A stretch of 64,000 bases of DNA from a virus, in IMG/VR virus record IMGVR_UViG_3300009128_000008, positions 1-64,000 of that record, one strand, 5' to 3'. A model generated the notes under the pieces. That model saw only the letters and a program-made list of their open reading frames with translations, was not told the DNA's origin and ran no database searches. This document shows, one piece after another, positions 3,438-30,142 of the stretch. The first letter of the stretch is position 1; each line of letters begins with the position of its first letter. A program made the position numbers and the translations under genes.

Positions 3438-5897
3438 TTACAGGACACCAACACCAACCCTAATGTAAATCCAGTTTACAGGATATACGGGCTGTACTGC
3501 CACTGAAATATTCCATTGTCTCGGATCTACGCTATCTCTAACAACCCTCAGATCCGCAAATTGTGTTATAAGCTTCTGCGAAATGAAGCTCTGCATAACA
3601 CTTGTGGCTCTGGCCAGTAATGTGCCTTGGAAGGTTTCTGACTCCGGAGATCCTGGGAATCCAGCAAAAGCAGCTCTCATGCTCTTTGCAATACGATCCC
3701 TAATAAATATGATGCTTATTTCTTCTTCTTCTGGGTATCCACTCTGGGTTGTCGTCTTACCCCAAATTACGGTACCGCCTCCAATCGCTGGTTGTAACGT
3801 TGTAATACCAGCTACAGCTAAATTCTCCAATGTAATCGGCCTAAATAGCTTGTCCCTCAAAATTGTAAATCCGGCCAACACCTTATTAGTTAGAGGAATA
3901 GAAACATTGGTCACGCCAGATAAATATCCAGCTGCTGCCGCGGCCATAAAGAACCCATCAACCAATGTGTTATCAGCCCCGATTTGTACAACTATCTGAT
4001 CTGGATAGAAATATACTACACGGAATGTTCCGCCAAAGGAATTAGGAACACCATAGTTAGTAAGATCCTCGACATTTCCTGACAAAATTTCAGATATATC
4101 ATCGCCCTGAATGCCCTCAAGAATACCAATATCTTCTACAGCAGCGGGCGTGGTGCCAATTACATTAGCTGGTGTCAAGCCCTGAATTGCCCCTATAAAC
4201 AACATTCGCTCTTTCTTGTTCTTAATATTACTCATGGCCTCACAATGCAGCCTAGCAGCCTGGAAAATAGCGCTAATTGTCTGAGAGGGAAGAGGAACCA
4301 CTATATCGCACTCAATCAATTCTAGTGCTTCCAGGGCCTCTTGCCATCCAACATCGAAAAAGTCTGCATCACGTGTGTCCACAACAGTAGCTCGCAAGCT
4401 CTGTCCAAGCGTTAAAGCTAAGTCCGAAGTGAATAAGATTCGAGCACTGCTATCACTTGTATCCAACACCCTAAATTCTGCGCCGGTTTCACTCACAAAC
4501 CCGCCAGGATCGGTGATTGTTGCAACACCTTCACTGACAGATACAATGCTATAAGTTCCAGCATTAGCGGCAGGAGCTAGTATTCTTATCTCTCTGGTTG
4601 CGCTCAGGTCATCCAAATTAAACTCTACGGTTGTACTACTTATTGTAGCGGTAGTGGGGGTTACCGGAGTAATTGCTCCATCATCGCCCTCTTTTTGTAC
4701 AGAATCTTCAAGAATTACTGTATAAGCATAAGTATAACCAACGCCATACATAAAGAGCGTAGGAGCTGCCGTAATAGCCGCGTCATAAAAATCTACTTTA
4801 TTAGGCACGATTTGTGTTTCAGACCCTGTAACCGGATCCGTAACAAAGAAATTAATATTAGTATCAACATCCGGGAACACATTAATTGGCAAAGCAAATG
4901 TAAGATCATCAGGAGCAGTACCACCAGACGCCGACTGTTCTAACACATAAGAAACTCTGCGCGGAATACTTGGTGCAGCCTGGCAACAGTAAACACCAGG
5001 AGGCTGATTGGCAAATGCAATCTGACATCCTAATGTAAGCCTATTATCTGTACTTGCCGAACCATGTTTTGTAGAGATCTCATCCATGTCCGAGAAAAAC
5101 TCCGGATCATTTAAATCTATTTCAGCAATATAATTTGCTATCAATGAATCTCCAGCAATTAATGAGCCACTCTCCACTTCTATTGTAAATGCATCACCCT
5201 CTCGGAACGCAGTAGATCCCTCAGAAATCGAGAAGGTCAATATTGTGTTGGATTCGGTAACACCATTGGACTGCCAAACAACATTATTTCCATAGCCATC
5301 TAACAGAATTCCACTAACCGATCCACTAGCAATAAATTTCGCATACCCATCGATAGGATTGCCATAACCATCTCGCACAACAGATACACACCTAACTGTC
5401 CAGGTTTCAGTGGGCGCATTTAAATCAACAAGGCTAAGACCATTAATCACACCGTTTCCAACATTGGCGCCACTTGCCTCCCAATAAGAGCCGCCTTGAT
5501 CCACAAGATGAGCAGTCTGTAATTCTACGTATCCAAGGGTAATATCTAAACGATAATCATATCGATCACTAAACGACCCTCCTGCAGTAGCAAACCCCGC
5601 CTGTTCCAGACCTACTAAGGGTATCCCATTTTTGTATAATACCGTACGGTTAGCTATTACTGGGGCGTATGTAAGCAAAAAGTGCCTACCGTCGCTACCG
5701 GTGGTTGACGTATATGTGGAATTCAATCCATCGTTACCATCCCCTACCGCAGAATTAACTAATCTCTCTACCCTTTCGCCTTCACCAACAATAGCGGCAA
5801 TCCTAAGGCCGCCTGGTACTGATACGCCACGAGATACTGTTTCTACATCTATATAGGGACCAGGGAGTGCATTTGTTGAACCTGGAAAATTTGCCAT
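3438..5897 (-). CDS. Contractile tail sheath protein with inserted domains
   Basis: N-terminal 'LPGPYIDVE…IAAIVG'; C-terminal 'ISVAVQPVYPVNWIYIRV'; 'AAAAAG…PLTNK' sheath core. Confidence 0.9.
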   Translation of the reverse strand: MANFPGSTNALPGPYIDVETVSRGVSVPGGLRIAAIVGEGERVERLVNSAVGDGNDGLNSTYTSTTGSDGRHFLLTYAPVIANRTVLYKNGIPLVGLEQAGFATAGGSFSDRYDYRLDITLGYVELQTAHLVDQGGSYWEASGANVGNGVINGLSLVDLNAPTETWTVRCVSVVRDGYGNPIDGYAKFIASGSVSGILLDGYGNNVVWQSNGVTESNTILTFSISEGSTAFREGDAFTIEVESGSLIAGDSLIANYIAEIDLNDPEFFSDMDEISTKHGSASTDNRLTLGCQIAFANQPPGVYCCQAAPSIPRRVSYVLEQSASGGTAPDDLTFALPINVFPDVDTNINFFVTDPVTGSETQIVPNKVDFYDAAITAAPTLFMYGVGYTYAYTVILEDSVQKEGDDGAITPVTPTTATISSTTVEFNLDDLSATREIRILAPAANAGTYSIVSVSEGVATITDPGGFVSETGAEFRVLDTSDSSARILFTSDLALTLGQSLRATVVDTRDADFFDVGWQEALEALELIECDIVVPLPSQTISAIFQAARLHCEAMSNIKNKKERMLFIGAIQGLTPANVIGTTPAAVEDIGILEGIQGDDISEILSGNVEDLTNYGVPNSFGGTFRVVYFYPDQIVVQIGADNTLVDGFFMAAAAAGYLSGVTNVSIPLTNKVLAGFTILRDKLFRPITLENLAVAGITTLQPAIGGGTVIWGKTTTQSGYPEEEEISIIFIRDRIAKSMRAAFAGFPGSPESETFQGTLLARATSVMQSFISQKLITQFADLRVVRDSVDPRQWNISVAVQPVYPVNWIYIRVGVGVL

Positions 5898-6039
5898 GAA
5901 TTAATCCTCTTCACTAGGTTTACATGTAAACATTCAATAAAAATGTTATTTTATTGCCTACAATTATTACTTATTTATATGTTTTCTTATGCCGTGATTT
6001 ACGTTTTGTGCCTTTATAGATTTATTCCTATATTTACTA

Positions 6040-6831
6040 CTATAAAGTTGATAGCTGCTGAATAAACTCTAGCGCCGTTGTAATTCTTAGATTTGGGGCT
6101 ATTTCCGGCGGATGATCCCTTACATCCCCAAAATCTACGCATATATTAATGGCGTCCACCACAGAGTTTATCGGTATGTGGCGGTTCCATTCTGTCCGTA
6201 TATCCAGAGATATAGATTGTTTAAAAATCTTATCATTTCTGTCCTCTTCCTCACTCGGAGCATCTACCCTAGTATTTTTGATAAATACTCCGGCATGCGT
6301 CAGATCATCAAGTGACTGATCATCCACAAGAATGGACACCAATTCAACCAGTTCATCGCGCGATCTTAAGGACCGAGTCTCTACATCAATTGCTACGGTA
6401 CCCTCCCACGCTCCAGACAAAGAATAATAGCTTGGCGTGGTAATTATTGTCTCATTTCCGTACCCATCTATGTATCTAACGTGGGTGGTTTTTACCAACC
6501 CTTTATTTCGACTCATAGAAATAGGTTTTCGTGTTGTTCCAGCAGATCTGACCAAAATTGATGGATAATATCTTACATCATACCTATAATATTCTCCGAT
6601 ATAGACCCTCGTGGTAACATCATCATTTAAGCCCGCATCATTTGGTAAATTTGTATGATCTGGGGTATTTGGAAAGCCAAATTCATCTCGGGAATAGTGA
6701 TAATATGAGTCTTCTTCAAAAAAATTGCGCAACGTCTCTATCAACACCTCTTTTGGGTGTACAATCTGTGTGTTTTGAACATAATCGAACAAAGCATAAA
6801 GATCGGTTTTTGTTGAGTTCGCTGTTGCCAT
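6040..6831 (-). CDS. Tail terminator/completion-like protein
   Basis: Upstream of sheath; 'YPSILV…IDVETRS..SRDELVELV' pattern. Confidence 0.55.
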   Translation of the reverse strand: MATANSTKTDLYALFDYVQNTQIVHPKEVLIETLRNFFEEDSYYHYSRDEFGFPNTPDHTNLPNDAGLNDDVTTRVYIGEYYRYDVRYYPSILVRSAGTTRKPISMSRNKGLVKTTHVRYIDGYGNETIITTPSYYSLSGAWEGTVAIDVETRSLRSRDELVELVSILVDDQSLDDLTHAGVFIKNTRVDAPSEEEDRNDKIFKQSISLDIRTEWNRHIPINSVVDAINICVDFGDVRDHPPEIAPNLRITTALEFIQQLSTL

Positions 6832-6832
6832 A

Positions 6833-9800
6833 TTACCATCTATATGTTATATCTACCGCCTTCTGTATAGTATGATCGCCAACAGCAACAAACTTTTTAG
6901 TGTCTCCGGACGCAGCCGATTCCAGCTCCCAATACAACAGAAGTGCAATTGATTTTCCCACACCAGTCCTAAATGACGAATCTGGAGCTGTTGTGGTTAT
7001 GTCATATGTGCCAGCCGAACTAATATCTGTCGGCGCACCAGCCTGAGGAACACCAGGGCCGTTATGTGTCATAACAGCTAATATATAATCTAAAGTATCA
7101 AAATCATCACTAACAGTCATCCTGGTTTCGGCTTGCACAAAATAAGTGTTTTTAGGAAGATAACTTTCTAAATCGATATAATAATGCATGAACCTAGCAT
7201 CAGTAGTTATAGACCTGTCATAAACAATAAAGAATACTTCGCGAAACATATCAGGACTATTCCCTATTGACATAACCGCGGCGACACCGGTTATGTCCGG
7301 ATTAGATGCAGGATCGGGGGCATTGGTATCTCCAAAGAAAAATGCAAACCCATCGCCCGCGCCAATCTCAGAACTTGCCCACGTCCCTTCATGCCCGTGT
7401 ACATGTATTGTTTCTGTTTGATTTATATTTCTTTCAACTACCCAATTATCACCCCTATTTTTAATTACATCTGTATCAACCGGAGGAGCGCTTGCGGCCA
7501 CAAAATAATTATCAAAATAATTATCTACAACTAATGCATGATCAACCCATCCACCACCAGTGATATAAGCATAAATATCATTCGTGCCCCTGTAAATCTT
7601 GTTATTAGTAACAACTTTCATATCTTCAGTCGCGGGGCCAATATCATCGAGAAAAATGCCATACCCAGAAGAAGCAGTTGCGCCATCTAACACAAAATTC
7701 TTGATTATATTGTTTGTTATTAACGACGGACCTGATGCAGATATTCCATTATTATATTGGTACGTGACCCCATCAACAACATCCTGGTCTATATTGTTAC
7801 CTATTATTTCGCGTATACTCTCCTCTGTGCTCATATAATCACTAACAAAAATAGCCGAGTTTTCAGCTCTTAATACGATAGATGATCCGTACCAAAACGT
7901 ATCTTCCAAATAAGTCGTATTATATGCCCTCAATGTATTATTAGTTATTTGGACGGAAGACGCTGTAGTTGCAGCGGTTTGTTGTATCTTTGCAAAAATC
8001 CAGTTACAATTATTTTTATCTATTACAACATTACCAGAAGTATAAGCTGAGTCCCCCAGGCCAAAAATCGAATCCCCTAATGTATCTAGAGATGCAATGT
8101 AATGACACGTATTCTCGGAAATATTTAAACCATTCGTAAAATCCACACCACTCAACAAAGTTGCACTGGCCGCTTCAACTCCGGATGTTAAGAATCCGAT
8201 AACACCACAATGATTTTTGCAGATATTAACGTTCGCAGTACGCAAGCCATAACCAGTAATAACTCCCCCAACAAAATCAGTCGGGGAGATAACATATATT
8301 CCTTGGGCGAAATTACATCTATTATTTTCTATCCACGTATTATGTAAAACTGATGGCCCGCTGCCCGCCCCATCAACATTAACAAAAACAATAGCTGCCT
8401 GTATTTTTGCTGTAGCATCATCTGCGTCATTAAATTGGTTATCTGTAACTCTTACATTAGACACCCAATCGTCCCTATTTAACTCAAAATTAATAAATGG
8501 CGGCCTTTGCGATGTAACCTCAGACACAAATATACATCTCTCTATTCTCATCATATGTGACAGCCCATTTGCGCCGCTTTGTGGTTCGCGATAAATGCAG
8601 CCATTTCCAATATTTATCTTGTCATCGGGAGTATATGATCCCTCTGGGTTGTAAACAAAATTTATCCCATACAATGAAACAAAACTATCAATTATAAATC
8701 CTTGTGGAACAGTAACATTAAATACCGCGCCGTCTCCTTCAAAAACAACAGGAATAGTAAATCCAGAAAGATCTATTGTCGAATCAACATCCCACACACC
8801 TCTAACTCTAACTTTTTGTACTCCTCCTGTACTATCGTTTACACCAAATTGCCCAACATCATAGCGATTTATCCAATTTTTCAGAGCTTCTACACAGTGA
8901 AAATTACCAACAAAATCTTCGGTAGTCCAAGTTAGCGGATGGTTTGCTCCCTCATGATCTACAAATTTGCGCACATCTTCTACGTCACCCTCAGTAATAT
9001 TTACAGAACTAATATCTGCAACAATTAATGCTATTGGAGTCAGATCTTGTCGGGTATTTATCAGCTCAGTAAAAGTAACAGATGGAACATAATAAGTTTG
9101 TCCTGCTGGCGTTTCAGCAAAATATTGTGTCTTAGTTGTGGTTATTAAAATTGTTTCAAGACCATTATGCTCATTAGCACAAACAGCCCATAAAACACTT
9201 ATCGGCGGTGGGGGTGGGTATGGCGTTCCTGCTGGAAAAATCTCTGGAATAGTTGCGGACATATTATTGATCACGCTAATATGACCATTTACTAACGCCA
9301 AGCCGCCTTTAAAGAAAACCTCGGAGGTACCACTTGGGGTCGTAGCAATGTAATCCAAATCCAGACCCCTCAATACACCATTAGGATGTAAATGTCTATC
9401 GCCAGAAGTGATAAATTCAATCGCAGAGGTTGTGAAGTCTGTCTCATCTACGCTGCCAAACTGCCTTCGATCCTGGGCGCGCTCAACAATATATGTATCA
9501 GAGTCTGGGCGCCAATTAACCTCACAAGTTGCCAGGATCATTAATTCATCCTGAAGGCGCAATGATGGGAAAATCTCTATATCAACATATCTAGGAACAG
9601 CAGATCCTAAAATTGGATCTCCTGGAAATGCTGCTGTAAGATCTAAAAACACAAGATCTATATAATCATTATATGTCTCGTCATAAAAACGAGTTGGTAC
9701 GTCTTTCCTTCCGGTGGTTAATGGCCCAACGTTAAAAATTCCATCACCAAAGGGATCTCTTTGTCCAATATAGCCGTCGTACTCTCCAGACGCAACAGTA

Positions 9801-12235
9801 TAGGTATTAATATAAAATCTTATATACCTATTAAATGTTGTTGCCCCATCTCTATAAGCACGCAATTTTGGAGAGACATTTTCGATATGCCAATTACTGG
9901 TTGCTAATGCATTAGCGTATGGCGTGTCTTCTTCCTGATGGAGCATTCTCGCGCGCTCATGACTAAATGTTTTACCTTCGTCGGTAACATAAATCTCGTG
10001 CAACCTATGATAATCACCAACTGGAGCCGCATTAATAACGTGCGCGTCATTAAAGCTGATAGAATCTTCCGAAAAATAAAGCTTAACTGGTAATGGTGGC
10101 TCAGAAGAAAATCCAAATCCGCTTCCCGTCCCATGTCGACTATTATAAACAGTAATTAGGGTATATGCAGGATCGCCGGGGCACTGAATAAAAGTTACAT
10201 CTTTTATTACAAATCTGCCATAATCTAAATCATAATAAAAAGGATCACTAAATGGAATTGCCGGCTGAATTACAATAGTTTTTCCTGGCTTCAACTCTGC
10301 CGCTCTTAGATCTAAATTGACCAAATACGTCGTTTCTACTGTAAATGGAACTATCGGATTGCGATTAGAAATATACCCATCCCAATAACCATCTCCATGA
10401 ATATCCACCTGAGCATTATATGTTGGCGCAAAACGATCAAGCTTGCGACCATTAACAACATAATGACGCTCCTTGAAAGGCATAATTACCTTAGTCGGCA
10501 TTTGAGCAGACCATTGATCAGGAAATGTAGCCAAGAATGTTGGGCTGGCAATATCTATATGTGCCGCACCAAATCCAAACACATCATAATCATCACCCGC
10601 GCTCTCACCAATAACATTTTCCGTATAAATATCGGTTATTAGCGTCCCGGCATTATTGACGCCTTTAATTATGGCAAAACTGGCTCCCCCAATCGCATCA
10701 GCCAACATAATACCAAACTCACCCTCGTAAGCAAATGCAATAAAGCGATAATTATATCCAATTTCTCGCAACTTATTATTTGTCGCCTGAACAACAGTGT
10801 CTAATGTATAATCTCCGGGAGTTATGCCGGCATTTCCAGTAACATCAATTGCCGGTAAACTAATAACATGATCATTCGGATTTCCAGTTGGATATAGCTC
10901 AAGATATAAATTATAATGTTCATCATCTAATTGGCCGGCATCAAATCCCAATCCAAGCGCCATAGCTCCGCGAGGATGTCCGGCAATCACACTAGCCACA
11001 ACATCAGTAAAGGCTATTGGTGGGGCGGGGCGAGTAGCATTAGCAGAAGCAATAGCTAATACGCCAGCCGTATCAACATCATATAATGGTCTGTCAATTC
11101 TAGCATAACCATCATAGCCGTCCGCGCCATCCACATCAAATAAATTATAACCATTTAACCTAACAACCCATGTGCTGCCTGGCTCATAACGGATTGAATC
11201 AATATAATAAATCGCCTCAATTCCATTGCCATAATTTATACGAATATGATCGCCTGGTTTTGCCTGGCTGAATTGAGAATCAAATACAAAACCGGTGTTG
11301 TCTGGTTTAAATTCTACTATGTCGTCGCCAAGCGCATTATTATCAACCGGACGGTTGTTTGGCGGATGAACTAAAAATGTATTTACCGGAGTTGGCGGAA
11401 CTACCTGCTCCTTATATCCATCTGGCAAAGTAAAACTTTGAACTCTGCCAATTCGAGGCACAGCATTAGCATGTTTTGTTGCCCGATGAATACCTATATT
11501 AAATAGCTCAAAATCATCAATAGCTTGAAAGGCCTTTTGGGCGTCATTAGCTGATATTGGAATTTCGGCGAAACCACTAGTATCAACCATTATCGCTGAG
11601 GCAAAATGAGCATTAGCAATAGAAAGTTCGTGACCAACTAAAGCGGAATTAATTTCATCTAGTGCTTGTGCAGCTTGTGTCCCAGGCCTTAGCGTGCCAA
11701 ATTTATCCCTAATCCCGTTCCAAACATAGAGCGGATCCCTAGGATCACTTGGCACCGCGTTTAAGTCTATCTGACTCGCCACATGTCTAGCGGGAGAGCC
11801 ATCAGTAAGGAATTGCGCGCCAGTGATATGGGCGTTCAAATCAGAAAATGTAGTATTTGCAAATGTTATTAAAGAATTTAACAAGGCGGAATTTGCAGCA
11901 ATCAATGTATACAAATCCGATGTCGAATGGTCCAAAGTTAATTTAGACTCAACTATTCCCGCATGTATTCCAACTTGAGCATTATCAATAGGTAACGTAG
12001 CCAAACCAACAGATGCTAACGCAGAGGCCCTAATTGTACCATTTGGATTTAGAGATACGTTCAAACGATCTGCAACTGTCTCTAAACTTCCAGACGGATC
12101 GGTTCCAAGCTCGGTCTCAATAGCAAAAACCGCATCTCGTAGTTGGTTTATACTCTCCTCGCCAACTTCGCTTATATTATCATCGACACGTACAATAGTG
12201 GTGTCATCATCGATTGCAAAAGGGTAAACTGTCAT
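6833..12235 (-). CDS. Large fibre/spike protein with a parallel beta-helix C-terminal half
   Basis: N-terminal 'YPFAIDD…INQLRDAVFAIETELG' attachment-like motif, HxASxI repeats, repeated I-x-x-N strands, C-terminus YRW. Confidence 0.6.
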   Translation of the reverse strand: MTVYPFAIDDDTTIVRVDDNISEVGEESINQLRDAVFAIETELGTDPSGSLETVADRLNVSLNPNGTIRASALASVGLATLPIDNAQVGIHAGIVESKLTLDHSTSDLYTLIAANSALLNSLITFANTTFSDLNAHITGAQFLTDGSPARHVASQIDLNAVPSDPRDPLYVWNGIRDKFGTLRPGTQAAQALDEINSALVGHELSIANAHFASAIMVDTSGFAEIPISANDAQKAFQAIDDFELFNIGIHRATKHANAVPRIGRVQSFTLPDGYKEQVVPPTPVNTFLVHPPNNRPVDNNALGDDIVEFKPDNTGFVFDSQFSQAKPGDHIRINYGNGIEAIYYIDSIRYEPGSTWVVRLNGYNLFDVDGADGYDGYARIDRPLYDVDTAGVLAIASANATRPAPPIAFTDVVASVIAGHPRGAMALGLGFDAGQLDDEHYNLYLELYPTGNPNDHVISLPAIDVTGNAGITPGDYTLDTVVQATNNKLREIGYNYRFIAFAYEGEFGIMLADAIGGASFAIIKGVNNAGTLITDIYTENVIGESAGDDYDVFGFGAAHIDIASPTFLATFPDQWSAQMPTKVIMPFKERHYVVNGRKLDRFAPTYNAQVDIHGDGYWDGYISNRNPIVPFTVETTYLVNLDLRAAELKPGKTIVIQPAIPFSDPFYYDLDYGRFVIKDVTFIQCPGDPAYTLITVYNSRHGTGSGFGFSSEPPLPVKLYFSEDSISFNDAHVINAAPVGDYHRLHEIYVTDEGKTFSHERARMLHQEEDTPYANALATSNWHIENVSPKLRAYRDGATTFNRYIRFYINTYTVASGEYDGYIGQRDPFGDGIFNVGPLTTGRKDVPTRFYDETYNDYIDLVFLDLTAAFPGDPILGSAVPRYVDIEIFPSLRLQDELMILATCEVNWRPDSDTYIVERAQDRRQFGSVDETDFTTSAIEFITSGDRHLHPNGVLRGLDLDYIATTPSGTSEVFFKGGLALVNGHISVINNMSATIPEIFPAGTPYPPPPPISVLWAVCANEHNGLETILITTTKTQYFAETPAGQTYYVPSVTFTELINTRQDLTPIALIVADISSVNITEGDVEDVRKFVDHEGANHPLTWTTEDFVGNFHCVEALKNWINRYDVGQFGVNDSTGGVQKVRVRGVWDVDSTIDLSGFTIPVVFEGDGAVFNVTVPQGFIIDSFVSLYGINFVYNPEGSYTPDDKINIGNGCIYREPQSGANGLSHMMRIERCIFVSEVTSQRPPFINFELNRDDWVSNVRVTDNQFNDADDATAKIQAAIVFVNVDGAGSGPSVLHNTWIENNRCNFAQGIYVISPTDFVGGVITGYGLRTANVNICKNHCGVIGFLTSGVEAASATLLSGVDFTNGLNISENTCHYIASLDTLGDSIFGLGDSAYTSGNVVIDKNNCNWIFAKIQQTAATTASSVQITNNTLRAYNTTYLEDTFWYGSSIVLRAENSAIFVSDYMSTEESIREIIGNNIDQDVVDGVTYQYNNGISASGPSLITNNIIKNFVLDGATASSGYGIFLDDIGPATEDMKVVTNNKIYRGTNDIYAYITGGGWVDHALVVDNYFDNYFVAASAPPVDTDVIKNRGDNWVVERNINQTETIHVHGHEGTWASSEIGAGDGFAFFFGDTNAPDPASNPDITGVAAVMSIGNSPDMFREVFFIVYDRSITTDARFMHYYIDLESYLPKNTYFVQAETRMTVSDDFDTLDYILAVMTHNGPGVPQAGAPTDISSAGTYDITTTAPDSSFRTGVGKSIALLLYWELESAASGDTKKFVAVGDHTIQKAVDITYRW

Positions 12236-12704: not shown

Positions 12705-15700
12705 TTACCATCTATAATGTACTCGCAGAACTTTTACCTCAATAGAACATGTGCTTCCATGCGATAAACTACCTAACATACGAAACATAGCTCTATGACC
12801 ATTTCCCACAAGAAAGTCATTATTTGGAGGCGTCATATATAATGTTTCTGTGCCAGTGCCAGAAAATGACACATTATCAGAGTCGCCGGCTGCACTGTCA
12901 TGATTTAATACGCCAATAAAATTAGAAGCTGCCGGAACATTAACAGCACGCAAGTCTAACTCTACATGGACTATACGCACTCCATGTGGAATCACCGACT
13001 CAAACTGAAGCAACCATTTAGGATACCTGGTAGCACTTCCTCCAGCTCCATATGCAATGGTAATTTCTTGCATATGAGTGCCGGTTGCCCCAACATACGA
13101 ATCAGCAAAGTCTCCCCACACGATCTCGCCAAACATAATAATCGGATCTGGCCCCATACCCCAAGTACCACAACAACTTGGCGTAACCTGCACAATGGTG
13201 GTCATATTTTTGTTGCGCTCAAGAACCCACTTATTATCGGGTATAGTGTTATCCCATATCAGAGTTTGTGTAACACCATCCCATGTGAAATCCGAGAACG
13301 CATTATCGACCATCATCCCGCGACCAGATGTAGCGCTCAAATAAATAAACGGACCTGGTAATGGATTTGCATCACCAGTGGCCGGATCTCTCCTCGAAAA
13401 GATATTATCATTAACCAAGGCTTCGCTATATGGCGCATCAGTAGATGGCACATTATCAATATATAAAACACCACCAAATCCTGCCCACCCCATAGGGGGA
13501 ACAATACTGTACATAGATAGATTGTTACCATGGATTTGCATGGCCGAACTCTTACACCAAACACATGTTGTATCGTCTCCAGGATTTACAGGAGGAACAT
13601 AATTAATAATATCAACTATATTTCCTTCAATAACAACTTTACGTATGGTGTCAGTATTATCTGAAGAAAAAGCATCGTAATTATTCACATAAATACCAGT
13701 CATACTTGTCCACGGAGGAATTCCTATCTCATAAGATATTCCGTAAACCCTATTATCGCAAATATTCACCTGATACCCAGGGGCATACACATTTATCATA
13801 CCAAGCTGAGTATACCATGCTCCGTCTGCATTATAATGAAATGCTGGAAATGGTTCGCCTTCTATCCTCTGACTTAGTGTATTTCCATGAATTTTTACTA
13901 AAGGATCTGTTGCAGTATAGGGGTTTAGAAAAGAAACGTCAATATCGATATCAATTAAGATGTGAGTGATATCTACTGCATTACGGGCTGCTTGGAAATC
14001 AGAATCAGATATTATAATATTTCCCTTGTTGGTAGGATCTGACGAGGCATCTACTGAGACCTGTAATGGCAATCCTCCCCCCATAAATTTACAATCACTC
14101 AATTTAAATGATTGTTCCGGAAATGCCAACAATACTGGTAGTGCATATGGAACCCCTAAAACCTCAAACGTAGAATGTGGGCCATGAATCACACAATTTT
14201 CTACCGTTATATCGCGGGACTCTATTAGTATAAATGCATCAAAATCGCCACTAGACAATAATGGGGCTGCAACCGGACCAACGGCTTGAAATCCCTCATC
14301 AGCAATTATGATACAATCTCGCAATGTAACTTTAGCATCGTCCTTCTTAATCCAAAAATAATTATCATCACCAGTAGCCGGAGACAATGCTGTTATAGTC
14401 TCACCAGTCAAATCCATCACACACTTATCCACCAAAATATTCGGGCGTTTTTGCGGACCAGATTGATAATTAATTACCGTATTATCACCAATACCACAGG
14501 CGTATCCATTACCCTCAAATATACAATTTTCTAAGGTGGTAGAATTCACCGCCGGTAACAACACGCTAAGATTGTCTGCAAAAGTTCCATCTTGCTGAAA
14601 ATTACAGTCTTTAACTAAAACATTCTCTGCACCCGTAGCAACATTTGTAATTCCGTTAATATATAAAGCGGTATTTTCAAATATACAGTCTTCTACATGA
14701 ATCGCATGTCTCCTTTCAAGATTCACCCATAATGAATGAAAAGTTGCGGTAGATTCGCTCTGTATATTAATATGTTTTATTGAGTTTGCAATCTCAAAAT
14801 ATCTATTACCCAAAGGATCGGTGGTTACATCGGCAATATTTAGATTAAAAATTGGATATACATTACGCAACTTATTTCCAACAAAATTGTAATCTCTTCC
14901 GCCAGACTGTATGGTAATATCATATGTGCCGGGATTTACCACCACCGTTAGGGGGTATTGAAAGTCTGCAGACAGAATTAAATCTATCGCGTCATCACCA
15001 ATAAAATCTCCACTGGCCCTAGTTGTCCCCCCTTCTGCTTTTCCGGCTATTACATACCACGGATTATGTACGTTAGACCCCCAATTATTACCGGTCATTG
15101 TGGTTTTTAGAGATATGCCTAAGGTCAGATCTACCATAAATAACAGCGGAGTTTCAAAAGTGCCGACAGGACTGGGGGAACCAGTATTTCCAACAATCAC
15201 AATATCAACATCGTCTCCCCCAACACCAACCGTATCCACCAGAAAACAAATCCAAACTGTAGATGGATCGGGATTATTATCTTGTCCAACAACAAAATTA
15301 TTAGTAAGAGTTGCATTACATAAGCTCATCGCAACAAAGCAATTTAAAGAACCACTCGTTGGCGCGGCCTCCTCCCCAAATACTCTTGCCCTGCATTTAT
15401 CGATTACTAAATGATCGGCATCTCCATTGCCAGGATCAAATCTTACAGCAATTTGAAAACCGTCAAAAAAACATCTTTTCAATGTTAAATGAGTCGGTTC
15501 CGTACTTGCATCAACATACCCAATTGCTCGTTGCGTTTTCAGCCTGCCAGTAACCGGGCCATTATTAACCCTTCCAATAAATTTAACATGCTCACAAGTA
15601 AAATTGGACCCTCGCTCACACAATATCATGGGGTTTAGCGGCATTGTAGCAATTGGCTCGCCAGCTACTTGAACGTTACGATCTAAATTATCGCCTATAA

Positions 15701-16283
15701 TTAAGTTATAAAATCTTGTTGAATCTAATGGCGCTCCTGCCTCTAAATCTAATTCTGTAGGTGTGCCGCCATCACCGCCAATAGTTGTGCTAAGAGCTGT
15801 GGTTGAAATCCTAAACATAGGAATCTGATTTGTCTCCCCAACAATTATGGTGCCGGCTATCTCTCCCATAATAGAAACACCAGCAGGAACAATAATTGTA
15901 TTAACAACCGTATATTTACCCGCCAATATTAAAACAATACCGCCATCTGTCAATCTAGTATCATTAAAGGCCGCTTGCATAGCATGTTCAAATGTAGGTA
16001 AACCAGGCTCGCCAATATTATATGATCCCTGGGCATTTCCGCTTAAATCCCCAACACTTACAAAGCCTGACCCACCAGAGGCTATACCAACAGCCAACGC
16101 TTCTAAGGTTTCTTGCACAGTATCATCATGCGGATATAGAATTAATGGAGGATTCATATCGGTCTGATCAGCGGTATGCCTCCAATCGCCTCCAGTATGA
16201 TGCGCAATGAAATCTTGTTTATGGGTTGCCATTTGGCCGCCCTGCTGAACCCTGTTTGACCCTATAAATCTTCTAATAGCCAT
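12705..16283 (-). CDS. Beta-helix (pectin-lyase-like) spike/fibre protein, C-terminal paralogue of 6833..12235
   Basis: 'GGIVLILAGKY…TIIVPAGVSIMGE' beta-helix cap, CxF/N ladders, shared 'W(V)xERNxNxT' and terminal YRW. Confidence 0.65.
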   Translation of the reverse strand: MAIRRFIGSNRVQQGGQMATHKQDFIAHHTGGDWRHTADQTDMNPPLILYPHDDTVQETLEALAVGIASGGSGFVSVGDLSGNAQGSYNIGEPGLPTFEHAMQAAFNDTRLTDGGIVLILAGKYTVVNTIIVPAGVSIMGEIAGTIIVGETNQIPMFRISTTALSTTIGGDGGTPTELDLEAGAPLDSTRFYNLIIGDNLDRNVQVAGEPIATMPLNPMILCERGSNFTCEHVKFIGRVNNGPVTGRLKTQRAIGYVDASTEPTHLTLKRCFFDGFQIAVRFDPGNGDADHLVIDKCRARVFGEEAAPTSGSLNCFVAMSLCNATLTNNFVVGQDNNPDPSTVWICFLVDTVGVGGDDVDIVIVGNTGSPSPVGTFETPLLFMVDLTLGISLKTTMTGNNWGSNVHNPWYVIAGKAEGGTTRASGDFIGDDAIDLILSADFQYPLTVVVNPGTYDITIQSGGRDYNFVGNKLRNVYPIFNLNIADVTTDPLGNRYFEIANSIKHINIQSESTATFHSLWVNLERRHAIHVEDCIFENTALYINGITNVATGAENVLVKDCNFQQDGTFADNLSVLLPAVNSTTLENCIFEGNGYACGIGDNTVINYQSGPQKRPNILVDKCVMDLTGETITALSPATGDDNYFWIKKDDAKVTLRDCIIIADEGFQAVGPVAAPLLSSGDFDAFILIESRDITVENCVIHGPHSTFEVLGVPYALPVLLAFPEQSFKLSDCKFMGGGLPLQVSVDASSDPTNKGNIIISDSDFQAARNAVDITHILIDIDIDVSFLNPYTATDPLVKIHGNTLSQRIEGEPFPAFHYNADGAWYTQLGMINVYAPGYQVNICDNRVYGISYEIGIPPWTSMTGIYVNNYDAFSSDNTDTIRKVVIEGNIVDIINYVPPVNPGDDTTCVWCKSSAMQIHGNNLSMYSIVPPMGWAGFGGVLYIDNVPSTDAPYSEALVNDNIFSRRDPATGDANPLPGPFIYLSATSGRGMMVDNAFSDFTWDGVTQTLIWDNTIPDNKWVLERNKNMTTIVQVTPSCCGTWGMGPDPIIMFGEIVWGDFADSYVGATGTHMQEITIAYGAGGSATRYPKWLLQFESVIPHGVRIVHVELDLRAVNVPAASNFIGVLNHDSAAGDSDNVSFSGTGTETLYMTPPNNDFLVGNGHRAMFRMLGSLSHGSTCSIEVKVLRVHYRW

Positions 16284-21400: not shown

Positions 21401-21407
21401 AATTCCC

Positions 21408-23242: not shown

Positions 23243-24145
23243 TTAAATAATTTGCCTTGCTCTCAGGTGCCTAAGCCTTGCCAGAGCAGGATGTCTAGCC
23301 GTGCTTATCGTCAAAGTGCCCAAGCCAATCGGTCCTGGTTTCATGTTGAACTTAATCAATTTAACTTTTTCAAAATGATTAGCCAACTCAGCAGCCCATT
23401 CAGTTTGCATTAAGTCAGACACGCCGGGAGGAGTAAATTGAATCCCCTGATCATTAATCTGGAACTCTCTACCTCTCTCCAATAACGCCTTGCTAGATAG
23501 AGCCATTAATGTTGCGCCTTGAACAATTACATCATGGAATTGAGCAATAATTTCCGTATCTTCAAATGTAAAAAAAGTAAAATGCGGAATCTCATTAAAC
23601 AGGCTTAATGAGTTGGCGATAAAAGAGACTAACGAGTCTATATTGTAAATATCACAATCTACATATACGTCATTTCCCCATTGGTCTGTAGACTTTACCT
23701 TGCCTCTACTATCCAGTCTGGCTCGTAATGTTTTAATTAGAAGGTTTATATTATGTATAGCAATTTGGCTATAATTGAACCCAGGATCATCTCCTAAATG
23801 CTCATAACCGTCAGTATTTACGGCTGGCATTTGTGTGTTCTGAACCACAAAATTAAATGATCCTGAGACACGATACCCATTCATAACACCATCCCAGATA
23901 TCATTCCAAACGCCCAAAGCGGCATTAAAACCTACGGCGAAATCATATCCATATAATCCGGTGCTAACTCTATATACACCGGCATTTGTAGGTCCAATAA
24001 CTACATTACCACTAGGCTCTTCAATAGTAACGGTAGGAAGAGCATCCAAATCTGCAGGGTTACCATCAGCGCCACGAAATAAAGCGCGCAATTGTACGGT
24101 TTCAGTGTGCCCTACAGTTTGTCCTCTAGACCTCAATACTACCAT
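23243..24145 (-). CDS. Head-tail adaptor/neck protein with Ig-like N-terminal domain
   Basis: Beta-rich N-terminus then helical adaptor-like domain ('LRARLD…SLSLFNEIP…INDQG'); position between capsid and tail genes. Confidence 0.55.
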   Translation of the reverse strand: MVVLRSRGQTVGHTETVQLRALFRGADGNPADLDALPTVTIEEPSGNVVIGPTNAGVYRVSTGLYGYDFAVGFNAALGVWNDIWDGVMNGYRVSGSFNFVVQNTQMPAVNTDGYEHLGDDPGFNYSQIAIHNINLLIKTLRARLDSRGKVKSTDQWGNDVYVDCDIYNIDSLVSFIANSLSLFNEIPHFTFFTFEDTEIIAQFHDVIVQGATLMALSSKALLERGREFQINDQGIQFTPPGVSDLMQTEWAAELANHFEKVKLIKFNMKPGPIGLGTLTISTARHPALARLRHLRARQII

Positions 24146-24213: not shown

Positions 24214-24573
24214 TTAAGATGGGTACACCGCCAAATTACCTAAGGGCAATGAAACATTAATTAAATACGTATCATAAAAATTAGCCACTCCAGTATGAGG
24301 ATCTGGCACTGGACCCTGGTACACAACTCTCAATATATACGTTCCCAAATTAGTAGTACTACTAGGAACAACAAAAGAACCACGATATGTTCCAACAGAA
24401 ATTCTAGTAAGTGGAACAGGGTAGCCACCTACTGCAGCTCCAGTTGGATCTATCACTGATTCAATAAATGGCATATAGCCATCTACAAGATTTCCCCAAA
24501 GCCCTTGAGACAACACATTTGCGGAAAATGAAATCGTTTGTCCTGGGTTCGCATTAATATTAACTGTACTCAT
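24214..24573 (-). CDS. Small Ig-like structural protein
   Basis: 'ISVGTYRGSF…GTYILRV' beta-sandwich, similar to the N-terminal domain of 23243..24145 (VSTGLYGYDF…GVWND). Confidence 0.5.
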   Translation of the reverse strand: MSTVNINANPGQTISFSANVLSQGLWGNLVDGYMPFIESVIDPTGAAVGGYPVPLTRISVGTYRGSFVVPSSTTNLGTYILRVVYQGPVPDPHTGVANFYDTYLINVSLPLGNLAVYPS

Positions 24574-28272: not shown

Positions 28273-28309
28273 AAAACAAAAAAGCCCGCATAATAATTTA
28301 TACGGGCTT
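28273..28309 (-). terminator. Rho-independent terminator after the major capsid gene
   Basis: aagcccg…cgggctt stem followed by a U-tract on the minus strand. Confidence 0.75.
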
Positions 28310-28346
28310 AAATTTAAGTCAGTAGACTATTTTGTAGTAATCTAGC

Positions 28347-29357
28347 TTATGCGCCAATTACAGTGCTCTTGTTACCAGCAGATACGCCGCGAGGATTGAC
28401 AATACCAAGACCAATGATCTCGGAAACAACCCAGCCCAACTTAAGCTGCTTGGGTTCATCAGCAGGAAGAACCTCAATATCCTGTCGAACGGGCATTACG
28501 CCTACGAACTCAGGATCGGCACAAGCAAATACTGTACCAGCAGGAACGATCTTGGAAACCATAAGATCGGCGCCCCAAATATGAGCATGCAGACCAGTCT
28601 GTAGAATCTCACGATGGGTCACAGGATCAATATCACCAACACCAACAGCACCACCACCGGACGACCAATTAAGGATGTCGGTGAATTCGTTGATATTCAT
28701 GAAGAACTTGGTCGTAACAAGGTCCCAACGGTCAACTTGCTGCTTTAGCTCGACAAGGTCGCGCCTTAGCATACCACCGTCAGCAATGTCTTGTAGGGTG
28801 TTCTCAGCCTGAGCAGCAGCATTAAGAGCCGCAAAACCATTAGCATCTTCTTGTGCCATGATTTCTTGACGGGCCTTCTGCACTGCACGGTCAATAACGT
28901 TAAATCTTCGCCTCTTAACCTCAGCAATACGAACTGTTGGATTTGAGTAAATCTCAAACTCAGGAACAGTTACACGATCGCCAAATACGCGACTCTCTGG
29001 GCCAGTACCATTGCTAGAAATAACAACAGCAGCCACATCGATATCACGATCATAAACAGGGAGTGCACCCTGAGGTAGCGGATCAACAACTAGCGCCCTA
29101 CGAAAGATACCTTGATAGTCAAGATTCCTACGAATTGGATTAGCCATAGCTTGAGCCAAAGCGATTTTGCCGTCATGACTCATAATAGCACGGGAAATTA
29201 GCTCATCACGTGCATCATCTGTCAGGCCTGGCTGACCACTTAGAGCTAGATTTGAAGGTGTGTTATCTTCAATAATTGAAGCGTACTTAGTTAGGGTAGT
29301 AAGTGCATCCTTAAGACTGGAAGCATTAATTTCTCCCTGGGTATTAAACATATTCAT
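28347..29357 (-). CDS. Major capsid protein (HK97 fold)
   Basis: 'ALAQAMANPIRRNLDY…VDPLPQGALPVYD…VPEFEI…AQED…IWGADL' pattern; AGGAG RBS; terminator downstream; follows a decoration-like gene. Confidence 0.85.
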   Translation of the reverse strand: MNMFNTQGEINASSLKDALTTLTKYASIIEDNTPSNLALSGQPGLTDDARDELISRAIMSHDGKIALAQAMANPIRRNLDYQGIFRRALVVDPLPQGALPVYDRDIDVAAVVISSNGTGPESRVFGDRVTVPEFEIYSNPTVRIAEVKRRRFNVIDRAVQKARQEIMAQEDANGFAALNAAAQAENTLQDIADGGMLRRDLVELKQQVDRWDLVTTKFFMNINEFTDILNWSSGGGAVGVGDIDPVTHREILQTGLHAHIWGADLMVSKIVPAGTVFACADPEFVGVMPVRQDIEVLPADEPKQLKLGWVVSEIIGLGIVNPRGVSAGNKSTVIGA

Positions 29358-29418
29358 AGTATATATACTCCTACGAGGTTAAAAGGCTACTCGCTAAGCC
29401 AGTAACCGTGATTAAAAC

Positions 29419-29456
29419 TTGAACAATCGGGCGCCCGATCACGGGCGCCCATTCAA
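29419..29456 (-). promoter_or_regulatory. GC-rich stem-loop between the decoration and capsid genes
   Basis: gggcgcccg-atca-cgggcgccc flanked by ttgaa…ttcaa. Confidence 0.55.
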
Positions 29457-29467
29457 CTTAGGTTAGA

Positions 29468-30142
29468 TTATAGTTCAGGATGGAAATGAATCACAGCCTC
29501 AGTGAACAGCATCTGAGCAGCAGCAGCACCAGGCGGAGAGTTCAACGCAGAGGTTAGATACCGTGGGGTAGTAACCAAGCTTCCATTAGTCTGGAACTCA
29601 ACAAACCTAGCAACAACGACCGCCTCAAAAGCAGCGCCAACAGTGGGTGTCAATAGACCAGTGGCAGTAGCATATAGAGCATCATTACCAACAAGAGTGC
29701 CATTACCAGGTACAAGACCTGTTCCTGCAGTCTCATCGACAGCGTCTAATGTTACAGCGTATAGACCAGGCTTATCCCAAAGGGTTACCTTACCACTACC
29801 AGTAGCAGTGTGCGGGCCTAACTGAGCACCAGTATTGACTACTTGACCAGCAATTCCGCCAACGACCTGACCAAACAAAGTACCATAATTTGTGGTCCCA
29901 TCATCCGTTAGGAATAGAGGACGAACACCAGCGGTAAGATTGGTAGTAACAGCAGGACGAACCTGATTTACTACGCCAACATAGCCATCACCAATATCGG
30001 AAGTTGCAAGATCCACATTTGCAGCGGTGCTTACATAACCGAATTGAGCTACCTCACCACCAAGAATGGTTAGATAATCATTGTCGTAACCGTCGAACTG
30101 ACCAAGCGGCTGGATTCCGGGTTGTAAAATTCTAAGAGCCAT
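29468..30142 (-). CDS. Capsid decoration/cement protein
   Basis: Immediately upstream of the capsid gene; Gly/Thr/Val-rich; 'GSGKVTLW…LYATATGLLT' beta-tulip-like pattern. Confidence 0.65.
   Translation of the reverse strand: MALRILQPGIQPLGQFDGYDNDYLTILGGEVAQFGYVSTAANVDLATSDIGDGYVGVVNQVRPAVTTNLTAGVRPLFLTDDGTTNYGTLFGQVVGGIAGQVVNTGAQLGPHTATGSGKVTLWDKPGLYAVTLDAVDETAGTGLVPGNGTLVGNDALYATATGLLTPTVGAAFEAVVVARFVEFQTNGSLVTTPRYLTSALNSPPGAAAAQMLFTEAVIHFHPEL

What the first reader, a model, noticed from the sequence alone, without database searches (positions are those of the whole stretch)
3438..30142. Asp-Gly-Tyr (DGY) tripeptide repeated across unrelated exterior virion proteins: candidate surface modification or docking code
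Seen: by hand I count about 20 DGY in seven non-homologous proteins. Sheath has 3 (RDGYGNPIDGYA, LDGYGN), tail terminator 1, the 1800-aa fibre 6 (e.g. DGADGYDGYA, GDGYWDGYI), the 538-aa neck protein 6, adaptor 1, the 119-aa Ig protein 1 and the decoration protein 2. A rough composition estimate predicts about 1 in these ~4000 residues. Codons vary (GAT GGG TAT, GAT GGT TAT, GAC GGC TAT, GAT GGA TAT, GAT GGG TAC), so selection acts on the peptide and this is not a DNA repeat. I saw none in the internal-head proteins, portal, terminase or major capsid. Inference: DGY is a recognition sequon on solvent-exposed loops. It could serve Tyr glycosylation, phosphorylation or cross-linking, metal binding, or docking of a small accessory protein over the virion. 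I know of no described phage system like this.
Basis: partly seen in the sequence, partly recalled or inferred. Interest (0 to 1): 0.85.

Follow-up and report, generated by a model that had tools for sequence, protein, structure and literature searches.

The report
DGY tag on huge-phage tail proteins
The sheath, fibre and neighbouring virion proteins of this uncultured huge phage and its relatives carry the tripeptide Asp-Gly-Tyr about ten times more often than chance, which looks like an undescribed surface mark, possibly a sugar-attachment site, though no modification has been shown.

Summary
The window has 20 DGY, all in seven proteins within 3438-30142. Composition predicts 3.6 for all 53 ORFs, and 0 of 20,000 shuffles reached 20. 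DGY is the most enriched of all 8000 tripeptides.

The contig is about 20% of a roughly 400-kb uncultured huge phage. In 80 related loci DGY occurs 1154 times against 89 expected.

All three residues matter: NGY and DGF are not enriched. Some sites are fixed; the three sheath sites are kept in 98-117 of 120 homologues. Others arise at new positions more often than any other tripeptide, preferentially in lineage-specific insertions, and sometimes in tandem runs. One lineage (L070) has lost DGY in several proteins at once while keeping the turn-forming residues.

Together this points to a factor acting in trans. The best candidate is one orthologous GT-B glycosyltransferase, found 44-53 kb downstream of the 538-aa gene in 14 of 14 large relatives. 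It would lie beyond the end of this contig.

A purely structural turn idiom and direct ligand binding remain live rivals. This scan has already noted the same DGY enrichment on other DNA (63 notes, at least 38 genomes). I found no paper describing it.

The parts
3438..5897 (-). Tail sheath, 819 aa, with 3 DGY at residues 176, 183 and 200 (codons at 5364-5372, 5343-5351, 5292-5300). All three lie in the N-terminal non-core part, in D-x-x-G-N hairpin-like contexts.
   Evidence: PHROG tail sheath phrog_279, E 1.1e-11, over residues 517-817. Sites and coordinates. The sites are kept in 98, 116 and 117 of 120 homologues.
6040..6831 (-). 263-aa protein of no known family, with 1 DGY at residue 122 (6460-6468), in the context IDGYGNETI.
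   Evidence: No Pfam or PHROG family. The site is kept in 24 of 28 homologues.
6833..12235 (-). 1800-aa fibre-like protein with 6 DGY at residues 272, 372, 375, 615, 619 and 820 (codons at 11414-11422, 11114-11122, 11105-11113, 10385-10393, 10373-10381, 9770-9778).
   Evidence: No family and no solved relative. In 60 homologues, site 272 is kept in 50 of 59, 615 in 49 of 60, 820 in 28 of 60, 372 in 19 of 60 and 619 in 13 of 60. A further 65 sporadic columns also carry DGY.
17453..19069 (-). 538-aa protein with an N-terminal FN3 domain, a Cys cluster and three C-terminal HxH motifs. It has 6 DGY at residues 26, 71, 111, 188, 231 and 289 (codons at 18986-18994, 18851-18859, 18731-18739, 18500-18508, 18371-18379, 18197-18205).
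   Evidence: A profile of 40 homologues matches neogenin FN3 domains in the PDB at E 8e-5. DGY 26-28 aligns to the turn before strand B. Sites are kept in 33, 13, 1, 34, 39 and 38 of 40 homologues. The family mean is 4.7 DGY against 0.16 expected.
23243..24145 (-). 300-aa protein with a weak MG2/Ig-like N-terminus and 1 DGY at residue 112 (23804-23812).
   Evidence: The Pfam MG2 hit (E 0.005) is below the curated cut-off; phrog_33358 has unknown function. The site is kept in 54 of 59 homologues.
24214..24573 (-). 119-aa protein of no known family, with 1 DGY at residue 31 (24475-24483).
   Evidence: No family. Its family of 44 members averages 2.09 DGY against 0.05 expected. There is a weak local similarity to sheath residues 154-191 (E 0.01).
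29468..30142 (-). 224-aa protein encoded just upstream of the major head protein gene, with 2 DGY at residues 17 and 52 (30086-30094, 29981-29989).
   Evidence: No family. Only one homologue was found in the 80 loci, and it also has DGY (family 82).
12705..16283 (-). 1192-aa protein with no DGY in this window, although its homologues average 2.1.
   Evidence: Family 16: 18 members, mean 2.11 DGY against 0.25 expected, 83% with at least one.
28347..29357 (-). Major head protein, 336 aa, with no DGY. It serves as a contrast.
   Evidence: phrog_2522 major head protein, E 3.7e-76; 0 DGY.

Best explanation
DGY is a short linear mark on a fixed set of virion proteins (sheath, long fibres and neighbouring proteins) in a clade of uncultured huge phages of roughly 400 kb. 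It sits mostly at turn or loop positions and is kept because something acting in trans reads it.

The most plausible reader is a phage glycosyltransferase. One orthologous GT-B enzyme is encoded at the distal end of the tail module in every large relative examined. In some genomes it is followed by a variable set of further glycosyltransferases. The proposed mechanism is that this conserved enzyme puts a first sugar on the Tyr of DGY on folded or assembled tail proteins, and the variable enzymes extend it. The exposed tail would then be coated with glycan.

Shown: the enrichment, its residue-exactness, repeated gain, preference for insertions, joint loss in one lineage, and the conserved position of the enzyme gene. 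Inferred: that the sites are exposed, that the enzyme acts on protein, that Tyr is the acceptor, and that any modification exists at all.
For: Enrichment:
- Window: 20 observed against 3.6 expected, 0 of 20,000 shuffles reaching 20.
- 80 related loci: 1154 against 89.5.
- Near-complete relative G005: 49 against 4.5 over 112 kb. DGY is absent from the ORF after the sheath gene and from the 1679-aa ORF.

Residue-exactness: in the DGY-bearing families DGY is 17.4x expectation, DGF 1.1x, DGT 1.8x, and NGY is not among the eight most enriched xGY tripeptides, the eighth being 1.0x.

Repeated gain: DGY occupies 126 sporadic alignment columns against 51 expected occurrences. That ratio of 2.47 ranks 1st of 3006 tripeptides; the median is 0.54 and the next best 1.34.

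Loops: 51 of 186 sporadic DGY (27%) lie in columns filled in fewer than 30% of homologues, against 6.0% for other tripeptides. This ranks 1st of 757. In the window, 9 of 20 sites have a Gly within two residues after the Tyr.

Tandem runs in G005: five DGY in 27 residues, and three at a spacing of six residues.

Joint loss: locus L070 has 2 DGY against 0.67 expected, the lowest ratio of the 80 loci.
- Its 538-aa homologue has 1 DGY. The 233 family members have 1 DGY (1 member), 2 (1), 3 (26), 4 (80), 5 (92), 6 (30), 7 (2) and 8 (1).
- At the conserved sites it reads NGT, NGF, DGT and DDE. The 300-aa homologue reads DGF, and two further families have none.
- It keeps 8 of 15 DGY residues but 181 of 242 other consensus columns. 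The family medians are 93% and 78%.

Candidate reader: a Glycos_transf_1-like ORF of 364-379 aa, 40-68% identical between genomes, lies 44-53 kb downstream of the 538-aa gene on the same strand in 14 of 14 large relatives. G005 has at least eight glycosyltransferase genes at 126-139 kb, directly after the tail module.
Against: - No modification has been observed.
- The window's contig holds no glycosyltransferase. It is only about 20% complete and ends about 17 kb downstream of the 538-aa gene.
- The conserved enzyme is only a remote GT4-type relative. Its best solved matches are BshA-type enzymes at E about 1e-3, and every NCBIfam hit is far below its cut-off. Nothing shows that it acts on protein, and no Tyr-specific phage glycosyltransferase is known to me.
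- GT2 genes are absent from 2 of 5 complete relatives that are still DGY-rich.
- In G013 the conserved enzyme gene is split over two frames, yet its locus L063 has 21 DGY against 1.2 expected.
- Co-occurrence has no negative control, because every genome tested has both features.
- Many sites are strictly position-conserved, and their substitutions (D to N/S/T; Y to T/F/V/I) fit an ordinary turn followed by a strand.
- T4 neck, tail and fibre proteins show a mild excess without any such system: 6 against 2.25.
- The joint loss rests on a single lineage.
Confidence: 0.4

Rival explanations
1. DGY is a structural idiom only. It would be an Asx-type turn (Asp), a left-handed Gly and a Tyr that starts or caps the next strand. 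This clade's beta-rich tail proteins would use it as a preferred way to build hairpins, and it would be inherited and reinvented because it folds well. Nothing reads it.
For: - The conserved sites are position-fixed over 40-80% identity.
- Replacements at those sites are turn- and strand-compatible: D to N (57), T (32), S (31); G to A (58); Y to T (39), F (37), V (33), I (29).
- DGY 26-28 of the 538-aa protein aligns to the turn before strand B of an FN3 domain.
- The sheath sites sit in D-x-x-G-N contexts, which I recall as typical of Ig-like hairpins.
- T4 neck, tail and fibre proteins show 6 against 2.25.
Against: - A turn preference should also favour NGY, DGF, DGT and DGV. These stand at 1.8x or below, against 17.4x for DGY.
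- Tandem runs such as five DGY in 27 residues cannot all be hairpins.
- Sporadic gains concentrate in lineage-specific insertions.
- L070 replaced DGY with NGT, NGF and DGF in several proteins at once while keeping other conserved columns at the family's usual rate. These variants therefore fold, yet they are rare elsewhere.
- The more distant phages LE2-3 and G, which share the sheath, show no excess: 4 against 3.2 and 3 against 2.2.
Confidence: 0.25
2. DGY is a direct ligand-binding microsite. Exposed Asp and Tyr pairs on loop tips would bind a host-surface or environmental polymer (sugar stacking on Tyr, hydrogen bonds to Asp) or a metal ion such as Ca2+ or Fe3+. Many weak contacts along the tail and fibres would add up.
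For: - The motif lies on fibres, sheath and distal tail proteins and forms tandem runs.
- Some copies sit inside dockerin- or EF-hand-like loops (DVDGDGY, DGYGDVNGDG) in the 976-aa protein of G005.
- The window's fibre has DVDGADGYDGY.
- Joint loss in one lineage could follow a change of host or habitat.
- The 538-aa protein also has Cys and HxH metal-type motifs.
Against: - Most sites lack the upstream Asp residues of a DxDxDG loop. Asp is not among the five most enriched residues at -2 and is only 1.3x at -4.
- Three contiguous residues in different folds are unlikely to form equivalent binding pockets.
- Pfam finds no lectin, cell-wall-binding or calcium-binding family in the seven proteins.
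- Three fixed sites on the sheath, which is not expected to touch the host before contraction, fit poorly.
Confidence: 0.15
3. DGY is a docking point for another phage protein. This could be a small accessory or decoration protein, or the long fibres lying along the sheath, which would zip onto DGY loops during assembly.
For: - The motif is restricted to a fixed set of virion proteins encoded together.
- Conserved small ORFs of unknown function lie among them, for example 12281-12646 and 19142-19648.
- Joint loss in one lineage fits a lost partner.
Against: - No candidate partner has been identified.
- Sporadic gain at many new positions and inside variable insertions is unlike a fixed protein-protein interface.
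- Tandem runs are also atypical of such an interface.
Confidence: 0.07

Closest known systems
Three-residue protein glycosylation sequons, such as the Bacteroidota general O-glycosylation motif D-(S/T)-(A/I/L/V/M/T) and Campylobacter PglB D/E-x-N-x-S/T (recalled, not read here)
   Same: A very short, residue-exact linear motif beginning with Asp. It is scattered over many unrelated surface proteins and is gained freely in loops.
   Different: The acceptor there is Ser, Thr or Asn, transfer is periplasmic from a lipid carrier, and the modification is proven. Here the candidate acceptor is Tyr, the candidate enzyme is a cytoplasmic GT-B, and nothing is proven.
Virion glycosylation by phage- or virus-encoded glycosyltransferases: mycobacteriophages (Freeman et al. 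2023, recalled) and chlorovirus PBCV-1 capsid protein (recalled). The abstract of PMC11256854, seen in a search listing, infers capsid glycosylation from two phage glycosyltransferase genes.
   Same: The virus carries its own glycosyltransferases next to structural genes, and outer virion proteins are the proposed targets.
   Different: Those systems have no DGY-type motif that I know of. Their targets are capsid and tail-tube proteins, and the sugars were detected. Here the motif is the evidence and the sugars are hypothetical.
Tyrosine O-glycosylation of bacterial S-layer proteins (Paenibacillus alvei, Thermoanaerobacter). I read passages of the review PMC2943079.
   Same: It shows that stable sugar-Tyr linkages exist on prokaryotic surface lattices, with two to four sites per protein.
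   Different: Transfer there is thought to occur during secretion, by an oligosaccharyltransferase. The passages I read give no DGY-like consensus. The primary paper PMC4397588 is not held.
Asx-Gly beta-turns (type I' turns and type I turns with a G1 bulge) and DxDxDG calcium loops (established structural knowledge, recalled)
   Same: Asp-Gly is a classic turn, and the residue after Gly often starts a strand. A few DGY copies lie in DxDGDGY loops.
   Different: Neither explains the exclusive preference for Asp over Asn and for Tyr over Phe, Thr or Val, the tandem runs, or the joint loss in one lineage.

Membership tests
Protein glycosylation sequon system | A short linear motif over-represented on the target proteins | tested here: met
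   20 against 3.6 in the window, 1154 against 89.5 in 80 loci, and first of all tripeptides.
Protein glycosylation sequon system | A cognate glycosyltransferase encoded by the same genome | tested here: inconclusive
   There is none in the window's contig, which is only about 20% complete. One orthologous GT-B gene is present at a fixed distance in 14 of 14 large relatives. Its substrate is unknown.
Protein glycosylation sequon system | A covalent glycan on the acceptor residue | not testable with these tools
   This needs mass spectrometry of virions or of co-expressed proteins.
Protein glycosylation sequon system | The acceptor residue is Asn, Ser or Thr, as in the described sequons | tested here: not met
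   The motif holds none of these. Tyr is the only hydroxyl residue, and Y to T or S changes are minor variants.
DxDxDG / EF-hand-like calcium loop | Asp or Asn at positions -4 and -2 relative to the Asp of D-G | tested here: not met
   Over 975 distinct site contexts, Asp is 1.3x at -4 and is not among the five most enriched residues at -2, where Cys, Asn, Tyr, Gly and His lead. In the window only the fibre site 372 (DVDGADGY) comes near.
Generic Asx-Gly beta-hairpin turn | Turn-compatible residues are interchangeable (N for D; T, V, I or F for Y) | tested here: not met
   Substitutions of that kind do occur at conserved sites. However, DGF is 1.1x, DGT 1.8x and NGY no more than 1.0x, against 17.4x for DGY.
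Cell-wall-binding / YG repeats (Pfam CW_binding_1) | Repeats of about 20 residues that match the family profile | tested here: not met
   There is no such Pfam match in the seven proteins at E up to 0.01.
DNA-level repeat or site | One sequence, in any frame and on both strands | tested here: not met
   Nine codon triplets are used at 20 sites. There are 21 in-frame occurrences, 5 out of frame on the coding strand and 2 on the other strand.

The most novel reading that the evidence does not exclude
DGY is the sequon of a new phage-encoded protein tyrosine O-glycosylation system. A GT-B enzyme conserved at the end of the tail module of a whole clade of ~400-kb phages starts a glycan on the Tyr of DGY on outer tail proteins. 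Lineage-variable glycosyltransferase clusters extend it, giving these phages a sugar-coated tail.
Probability: 0.3. Interest if true: 0.85.

Novelty: new variant of a known kind. Interest (0 to 1): 0.7.

Why it matters
If DGY is read by an enzyme, it would be the first sequence-defined modification code on phage tails and a rare case of tyrosine-directed glycosylation. It would be found in a large, globally distributed clade of huge phages that nobody has cultured.

It would give a direct handle for predicting which virion surfaces are exposed, from sequence alone. It would also assign a function to the glycosyltransferase clusters that many huge phages carry, and would allow a search for similar codes in other viruses.

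If instead it is a structural or binding idiom, it is still an unusually sharp, clade-specific sequence signature. That could be used to recognise the virion proteins of this clade in metagenomes.

Tried and rejected
Explanations rejected
- Chance. Rejected by the within-protein shuffles, by the ranking against all 8000 tripeptides and by the dipeptide-conditioned expectation.
- DNA repeat or DNA site. Rejected by the codon variety and frame specificity.
- One homologous domain spread over the seven proteins. BLASTP among them gives only weak local hits (E 0.01, 0.038 and 0.87). I did not run profile-profile comparisons.
- Calcium-loop explanation for all sites. Rejected by the flanking-residue profile.
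- A general property of myovirus tails. Eggerthella phage LE2-3 has 4 against 3.2, phage G 3 against 2.2, and T4 neck/tail/fibre proteins 6 against 2.25. There is thus at most a 2-3x background.
- GT2 enzymes as the universal reader. They are absent from 2 of 5 complete relatives, and PF13641 from 3 of 5.
- The trypsin-like ORF 20020-21141 as reader. It has a lipoprotein-type signal and a C-terminal membrane helix and is not in any conserved family of the 80 loci.
- The PTP-like ORF 45084-45842. It is conserved in G005, but I found nothing that links it to DGY.

Searches that found nothing
- Solved structures for the fibre, the sheath and the 300-aa protein. The 300-aa protein gave only matches above E 0.04.
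- GenBank phages for the 538-aa protein. The sheath matched only LE2-3 and G, at about 26% identity.
- ESM Atlas for the 538-aa protein: unnamed viral clusters only, and the Atlas's own model has pLDDT 0.50.
- Literature: 'DGY motif' with 'phage' gave 0 papers. 'DGY' with 'tail fiber' gave 0 papers. A five-term search on over-represented tripeptides in phage structural proteins gave 3 irrelevant papers.
- Close relatives of the DGY-poor L070 lineage. IMG/VR holds only the contig itself. The protein collection holds only one further 99% copy, on an 8.6-kb contig. I therefore could not test whether that lineage lacks the enzyme.

Not tried
- Complex prediction, because I claim no specific pair.
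- Sequencing-run tools.
- Supplementary files of papers.

Full report
WHAT IS THERE

The window is almost wholly transcribed from the minus strand. I took 53 non-overlapping ORFs (20,396 aa). DGY occurs 20 times, and every copy lies in seven proteins between 3438 and 30142:
- sheath, 3 copies
- 263-aa protein, 1
- 1800-aa protein, 6
- 538-aa protein, 6
- 300-aa protein, 1
- 119-aa protein, 1
- 224-aa protein, 2

The 30 ORFs from 30316 to 63994 have none, and the major head protein (28347-29357; phrog_2522) has none. The rest of the 84,695-bp contig adds one more copy.

IS IT MORE THAN CHANCE?

- Each protein's own composition predicts 3.58 in all, and about 1.1 in the seven proteins.
- The Poisson probability is 1.7e-9. 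DGY is the most enriched of all 8000 tripeptides, four orders of magnitude ahead of the next.
- Of 20,000 within-protein shuffles none reached 20; the maximum was 14.
- Given the observed DG and GY counts, 7.4 are still expected. After D-G, Tyr follows in 20 of 105 cases.
- Nine codon triplets encode the 20 sites.
- The DNA pattern GAYGGNTAY is frame-specific: 21 in-frame occurrences, 5 out of frame on the coding strand and 2 on the other strand.

The signal is therefore in the peptide.

WHAT THE GENOME IS

The contig is a virus record that CheckV rates about 20% complete. Similar 78-88-kb contigs are rated 15-21% complete, and syntenic relatives of 394-481 kb are rated 92-100% complete. The window therefore comes from a fragment of an uncultured huge phage of about 400 kb.

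The 538-aa protein has no match in GenBank phages. The sheath matches only Eggerthella phage LE2-3 and Bacillus phage G, at about 26% identity.

- The sheath matches a PHROG family.
- A profile of the 538-aa family matches FN3 domains in the PDB.

The other names have no family support.

THE PHENOMENON IS CLADE-WIDE

Eighty IMG/VR loci around homologues of the 538-aa protein hold 1154 DGY against 89.5 expected. Among their unique proteins DGY is the top tripeptide, at 12.75x.

The excess lies in particular families:

| Family | Mean DGY per protein | Expected |
|---|---|---|
| 538-aa | 4.39 | 0.17 |
| Fibre | 5.03 | 0.37 |
| 119-aa | 2.09 | 0.05 |
| 1192-aa (the window's copy has none) | 2.11 | 0.25 |
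| 300-aa | 0.97 | 0.05 |
| 263-aa | 0.79 | 0.06 |

Thirteen other conserved families carry almost none (mean 0.03 or less).

In the near-complete relative G005, 112 kb of the structural region hold 49 DGY against 4.5 expected. These include distal tail proteins that lie beyond the end of my contig. The ORF after the sheath gene and a 1679-aa ORF hold none.

CONTROLS

- LE2-3: 4 against 3.2.
- Phage G: 3 against 2.2.
- T4 neck, tail and fibre proteins: 6 against 2.25.

A mild general excess in tail proteins may exist. The ten-fold excess is specific to this clade.

ANATOMY OF THE SITES

Some sites are fixed.
- The three sheath sites are kept in 98, 116 and 117 of 120 homologues.
- Four of the six sites in the 538-aa protein are kept in 33-39 of 40 homologues.
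- Fibre sites 272 and 615 are kept in 50 of 59 and 49 of 60.

At fixed sites the replacements are D to N/T/S, G to A, and Y to T/F/V/I/N/S. These suit a turn followed by a strand. DGY 26-28 of the 538-aa protein aligns to the turn before strand B of FN3.

Beyond the tripeptide there is no extended consensus. Gly is twice as frequent as background just after the Tyr, and 9 of the window's 20 sites have a Gly within two residues after it.

FOUR RESULTS AGAINST A MERE TURN PREFERENCE

1. Exactness. In the DGY-bearing families DGY is 17.4x expectation. DGF is 1.1x, DGT 1.8x, DGV 1.3x, and NGY no more than 1.0x.
2. Repeated gain. Counting only alignment columns where a tripeptide occurs in at most 10% of sequences, DGY has 126 such columns against 51 expected occurrences. 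That ratio of 2.47 ranks first of 3006 tripeptides; the median is 0.54 and the next best 1.34.
3. Insertions. 27% of these sporadic DGY lie in columns filled in fewer than 30% of homologues, against 6.0% for other tripeptides. This ranks first of 757.
4. Tandem runs. G005 has five DGY in 27 residues of a 2225-aa protein, and three at six-residue spacing in a 976-aa protein.

A NATURAL EXPERIMENT

Locus L070 has 2 DGY against 0.67 expected, the lowest ratio of the 80 loci. The next lowest is 12 against 1.76.
- Its 538-aa homologue has one DGY, whereas 231 of 233 family members have three or more.
- At the fixed sites it reads NGT, NGF, DGT and DDE.
- Its 300-aa homologue reads DGF.
- Its copies of two further families have none.
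- It keeps 8 of 15 DGY residues but 181 of 242 other consensus columns. The family medians are 93% and 78%.

The direct comparison within L070 is only weakly significant (Fisher P 0.08). Against the family's usual 93% retention, the loss is strong (binomial 3e-5).

The loss is therefore specific to DGY, spans several proteins, and preserves the turn. That is what a lost shared reader or ligand would produce. It is a single lineage, and its contigs are too short to show what else it lost.

CANDIDATE READER

The window's fragment holds no glycosyltransferase. G005 has at least eight glycosyltransferase genes at 126-139 kb, directly after the tail module. They comprise four GT2, one Glycos_transf_1, one GT10, one GT11 and one Glyco_trans_1_2.

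GT2 genes are missing from 2 of 5 complete relatives. One Glycos_transf_1-like ORF, however, is present in all 5 and in 9 of 9 further large relatives (a tenth, L037, was not held).
- It always lies on the strand of the 538-aa gene, 44-53 kb downstream.
- The five copies I extracted are 364-379 aa long and 40-68% identical over their full length. This is about as conserved as the structural proteins.
- In G013 it is split over two frames, although that genome's locus is still DGY-rich.
- Its nearest solved relatives are BshA-type GT4 enzymes, at E about 1e-3.

Nothing shows what its substrate is. A conserved enzyme with variable neighbours would suit a conserved first sugar with variable extensions, but that is inference.

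READING

I put about 0.6 on a cause acting in trans:
- 0.40 that it is an enzyme, most likely this glycosyltransferase acting on Tyr
- 0.15 that DGY binds a ligand directly
- 0.07 that it docks another protein

I put 0.25 on a purely structural idiom.

PRIOR WORK

This scan has noted the same enrichment before on other DNA: 63 notes in at least 38 genomes. Earlier agents also favoured a glycosylation sequon. My enrichment, specificity, gain, insertion and joint-loss tests were run here independently.

I found no paper on a DGY motif in phages. I recall the work on mycobacteriophage and chlorovirus virion glycosylation but did not read it. For tyrosine-linked S-layer glycans I read passages of PMC2943079.

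Noticed in passing
window 26777-27850 (-): A NifS/IscS-like cysteine desulfurase sits inside the structural gene block, just downstream of the major head protein gene. Pfam Aminotran_5 matches at E 1e-38 and NCBIfam NifS at E 4.5e-43, the latter below the equivalog cut-off. It has AHK and GSAC motifs. It is conserved in 16 of the related loci (family 17).
   Followed up: partly
window 20020-21141 (-): A trypsin-family serine protease with an intact TAAHC / DIAL / GDSGGP triad lies among the neck and tail genes. It has a lipoprotein-type signal at the N-terminus and a C-terminal membrane helix. It is not in any conserved family of the 80 loci, so it is probably an accessory gene.
   Followed up: partly
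window 45084-45842 (-): A protein-tyrosine/dual-specificity phosphatase-like ORF lies in the head-gene region. It has an HCxxGxxRT loop and matches Pfam Y_phosphatase2 at E 4.7e-11. It is 57% identical to an ORF in the near-complete relative G005. I found no link to DGY.
   Followed up: partly
G000 62,705-84,572 (beyond the window; exact ORFs not assigned): The contig encodes a trigger factor (Trigger_N, FKBP_C, Trigger_C) and a full DnaJ (J domain, CxxCxGxG, C-terminal domain). It also encodes DNA polymerase III alpha, RecA, primase, RuvC and a PD-(D/E)XK nuclease. A phage-borne trigger factor is unusual.
   Followed up: no
window 16452-17456 (+), 21408-23138 (-), 25826-26713 (-): Homing-endonuclease-type genes (phrog_4645 and HNH families) interrupt the structural module. 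One of them is the only plus-strand gene of the region.
   Followed up: no
window 17453-19069 (-): The 538-aa protein combines an FN3 domain, invariant Cys pairs (C334, C336, C348, C351) and three C-terminal HxH motifs. From memory, HxH motifs bind iron in trimeric phage fibre tips and spikes. More than 640 homologues exist in metagenomes and none in GenBank phages.
   Followed up: partly
L070 (IMGVR_UViG_3300033069_001814), whole locus: This is the only DGY-poor member of the clade found. DGY is replaced by NGT, NGF, DGT or DGF in several proteins at once.
   Followed up: partly
G005:C1:116967-119897 and 110267-116944: The 976-aa distal tail protein holds dockerin- or EF-hand-like loops (DVNGDGIIDLADV, DVDGDGYVTSSDV) and 9 DGY. 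The 2225-aa protein has five DGY within 27 residues.
   Followed up: partly
window 24214-24573 versus 3438-5897: There is a weak local similarity (36% over 39 aa, E 0.01) between the start of the 119-aa protein and sheath residues 154-191. It covers the DGY sites of both, so they may share a small Ig-like domain.
   Followed up: no
window 1-1530 (-): The first ORF runs off the contig start, so the tail module is cut here. By synteny with G005, the baseplate and distal fibre genes and the conserved glycosyltransferase would lie beyond this end.
   Followed up: partly
G013:C1:165175-166292 (-): The conserved GT-B gene is split over two overlapping frames (293 and 109 aa) in this 92%-complete relative. 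The cause could be a frameshift, an assembly error or a pseudogene.
   Followed up: no
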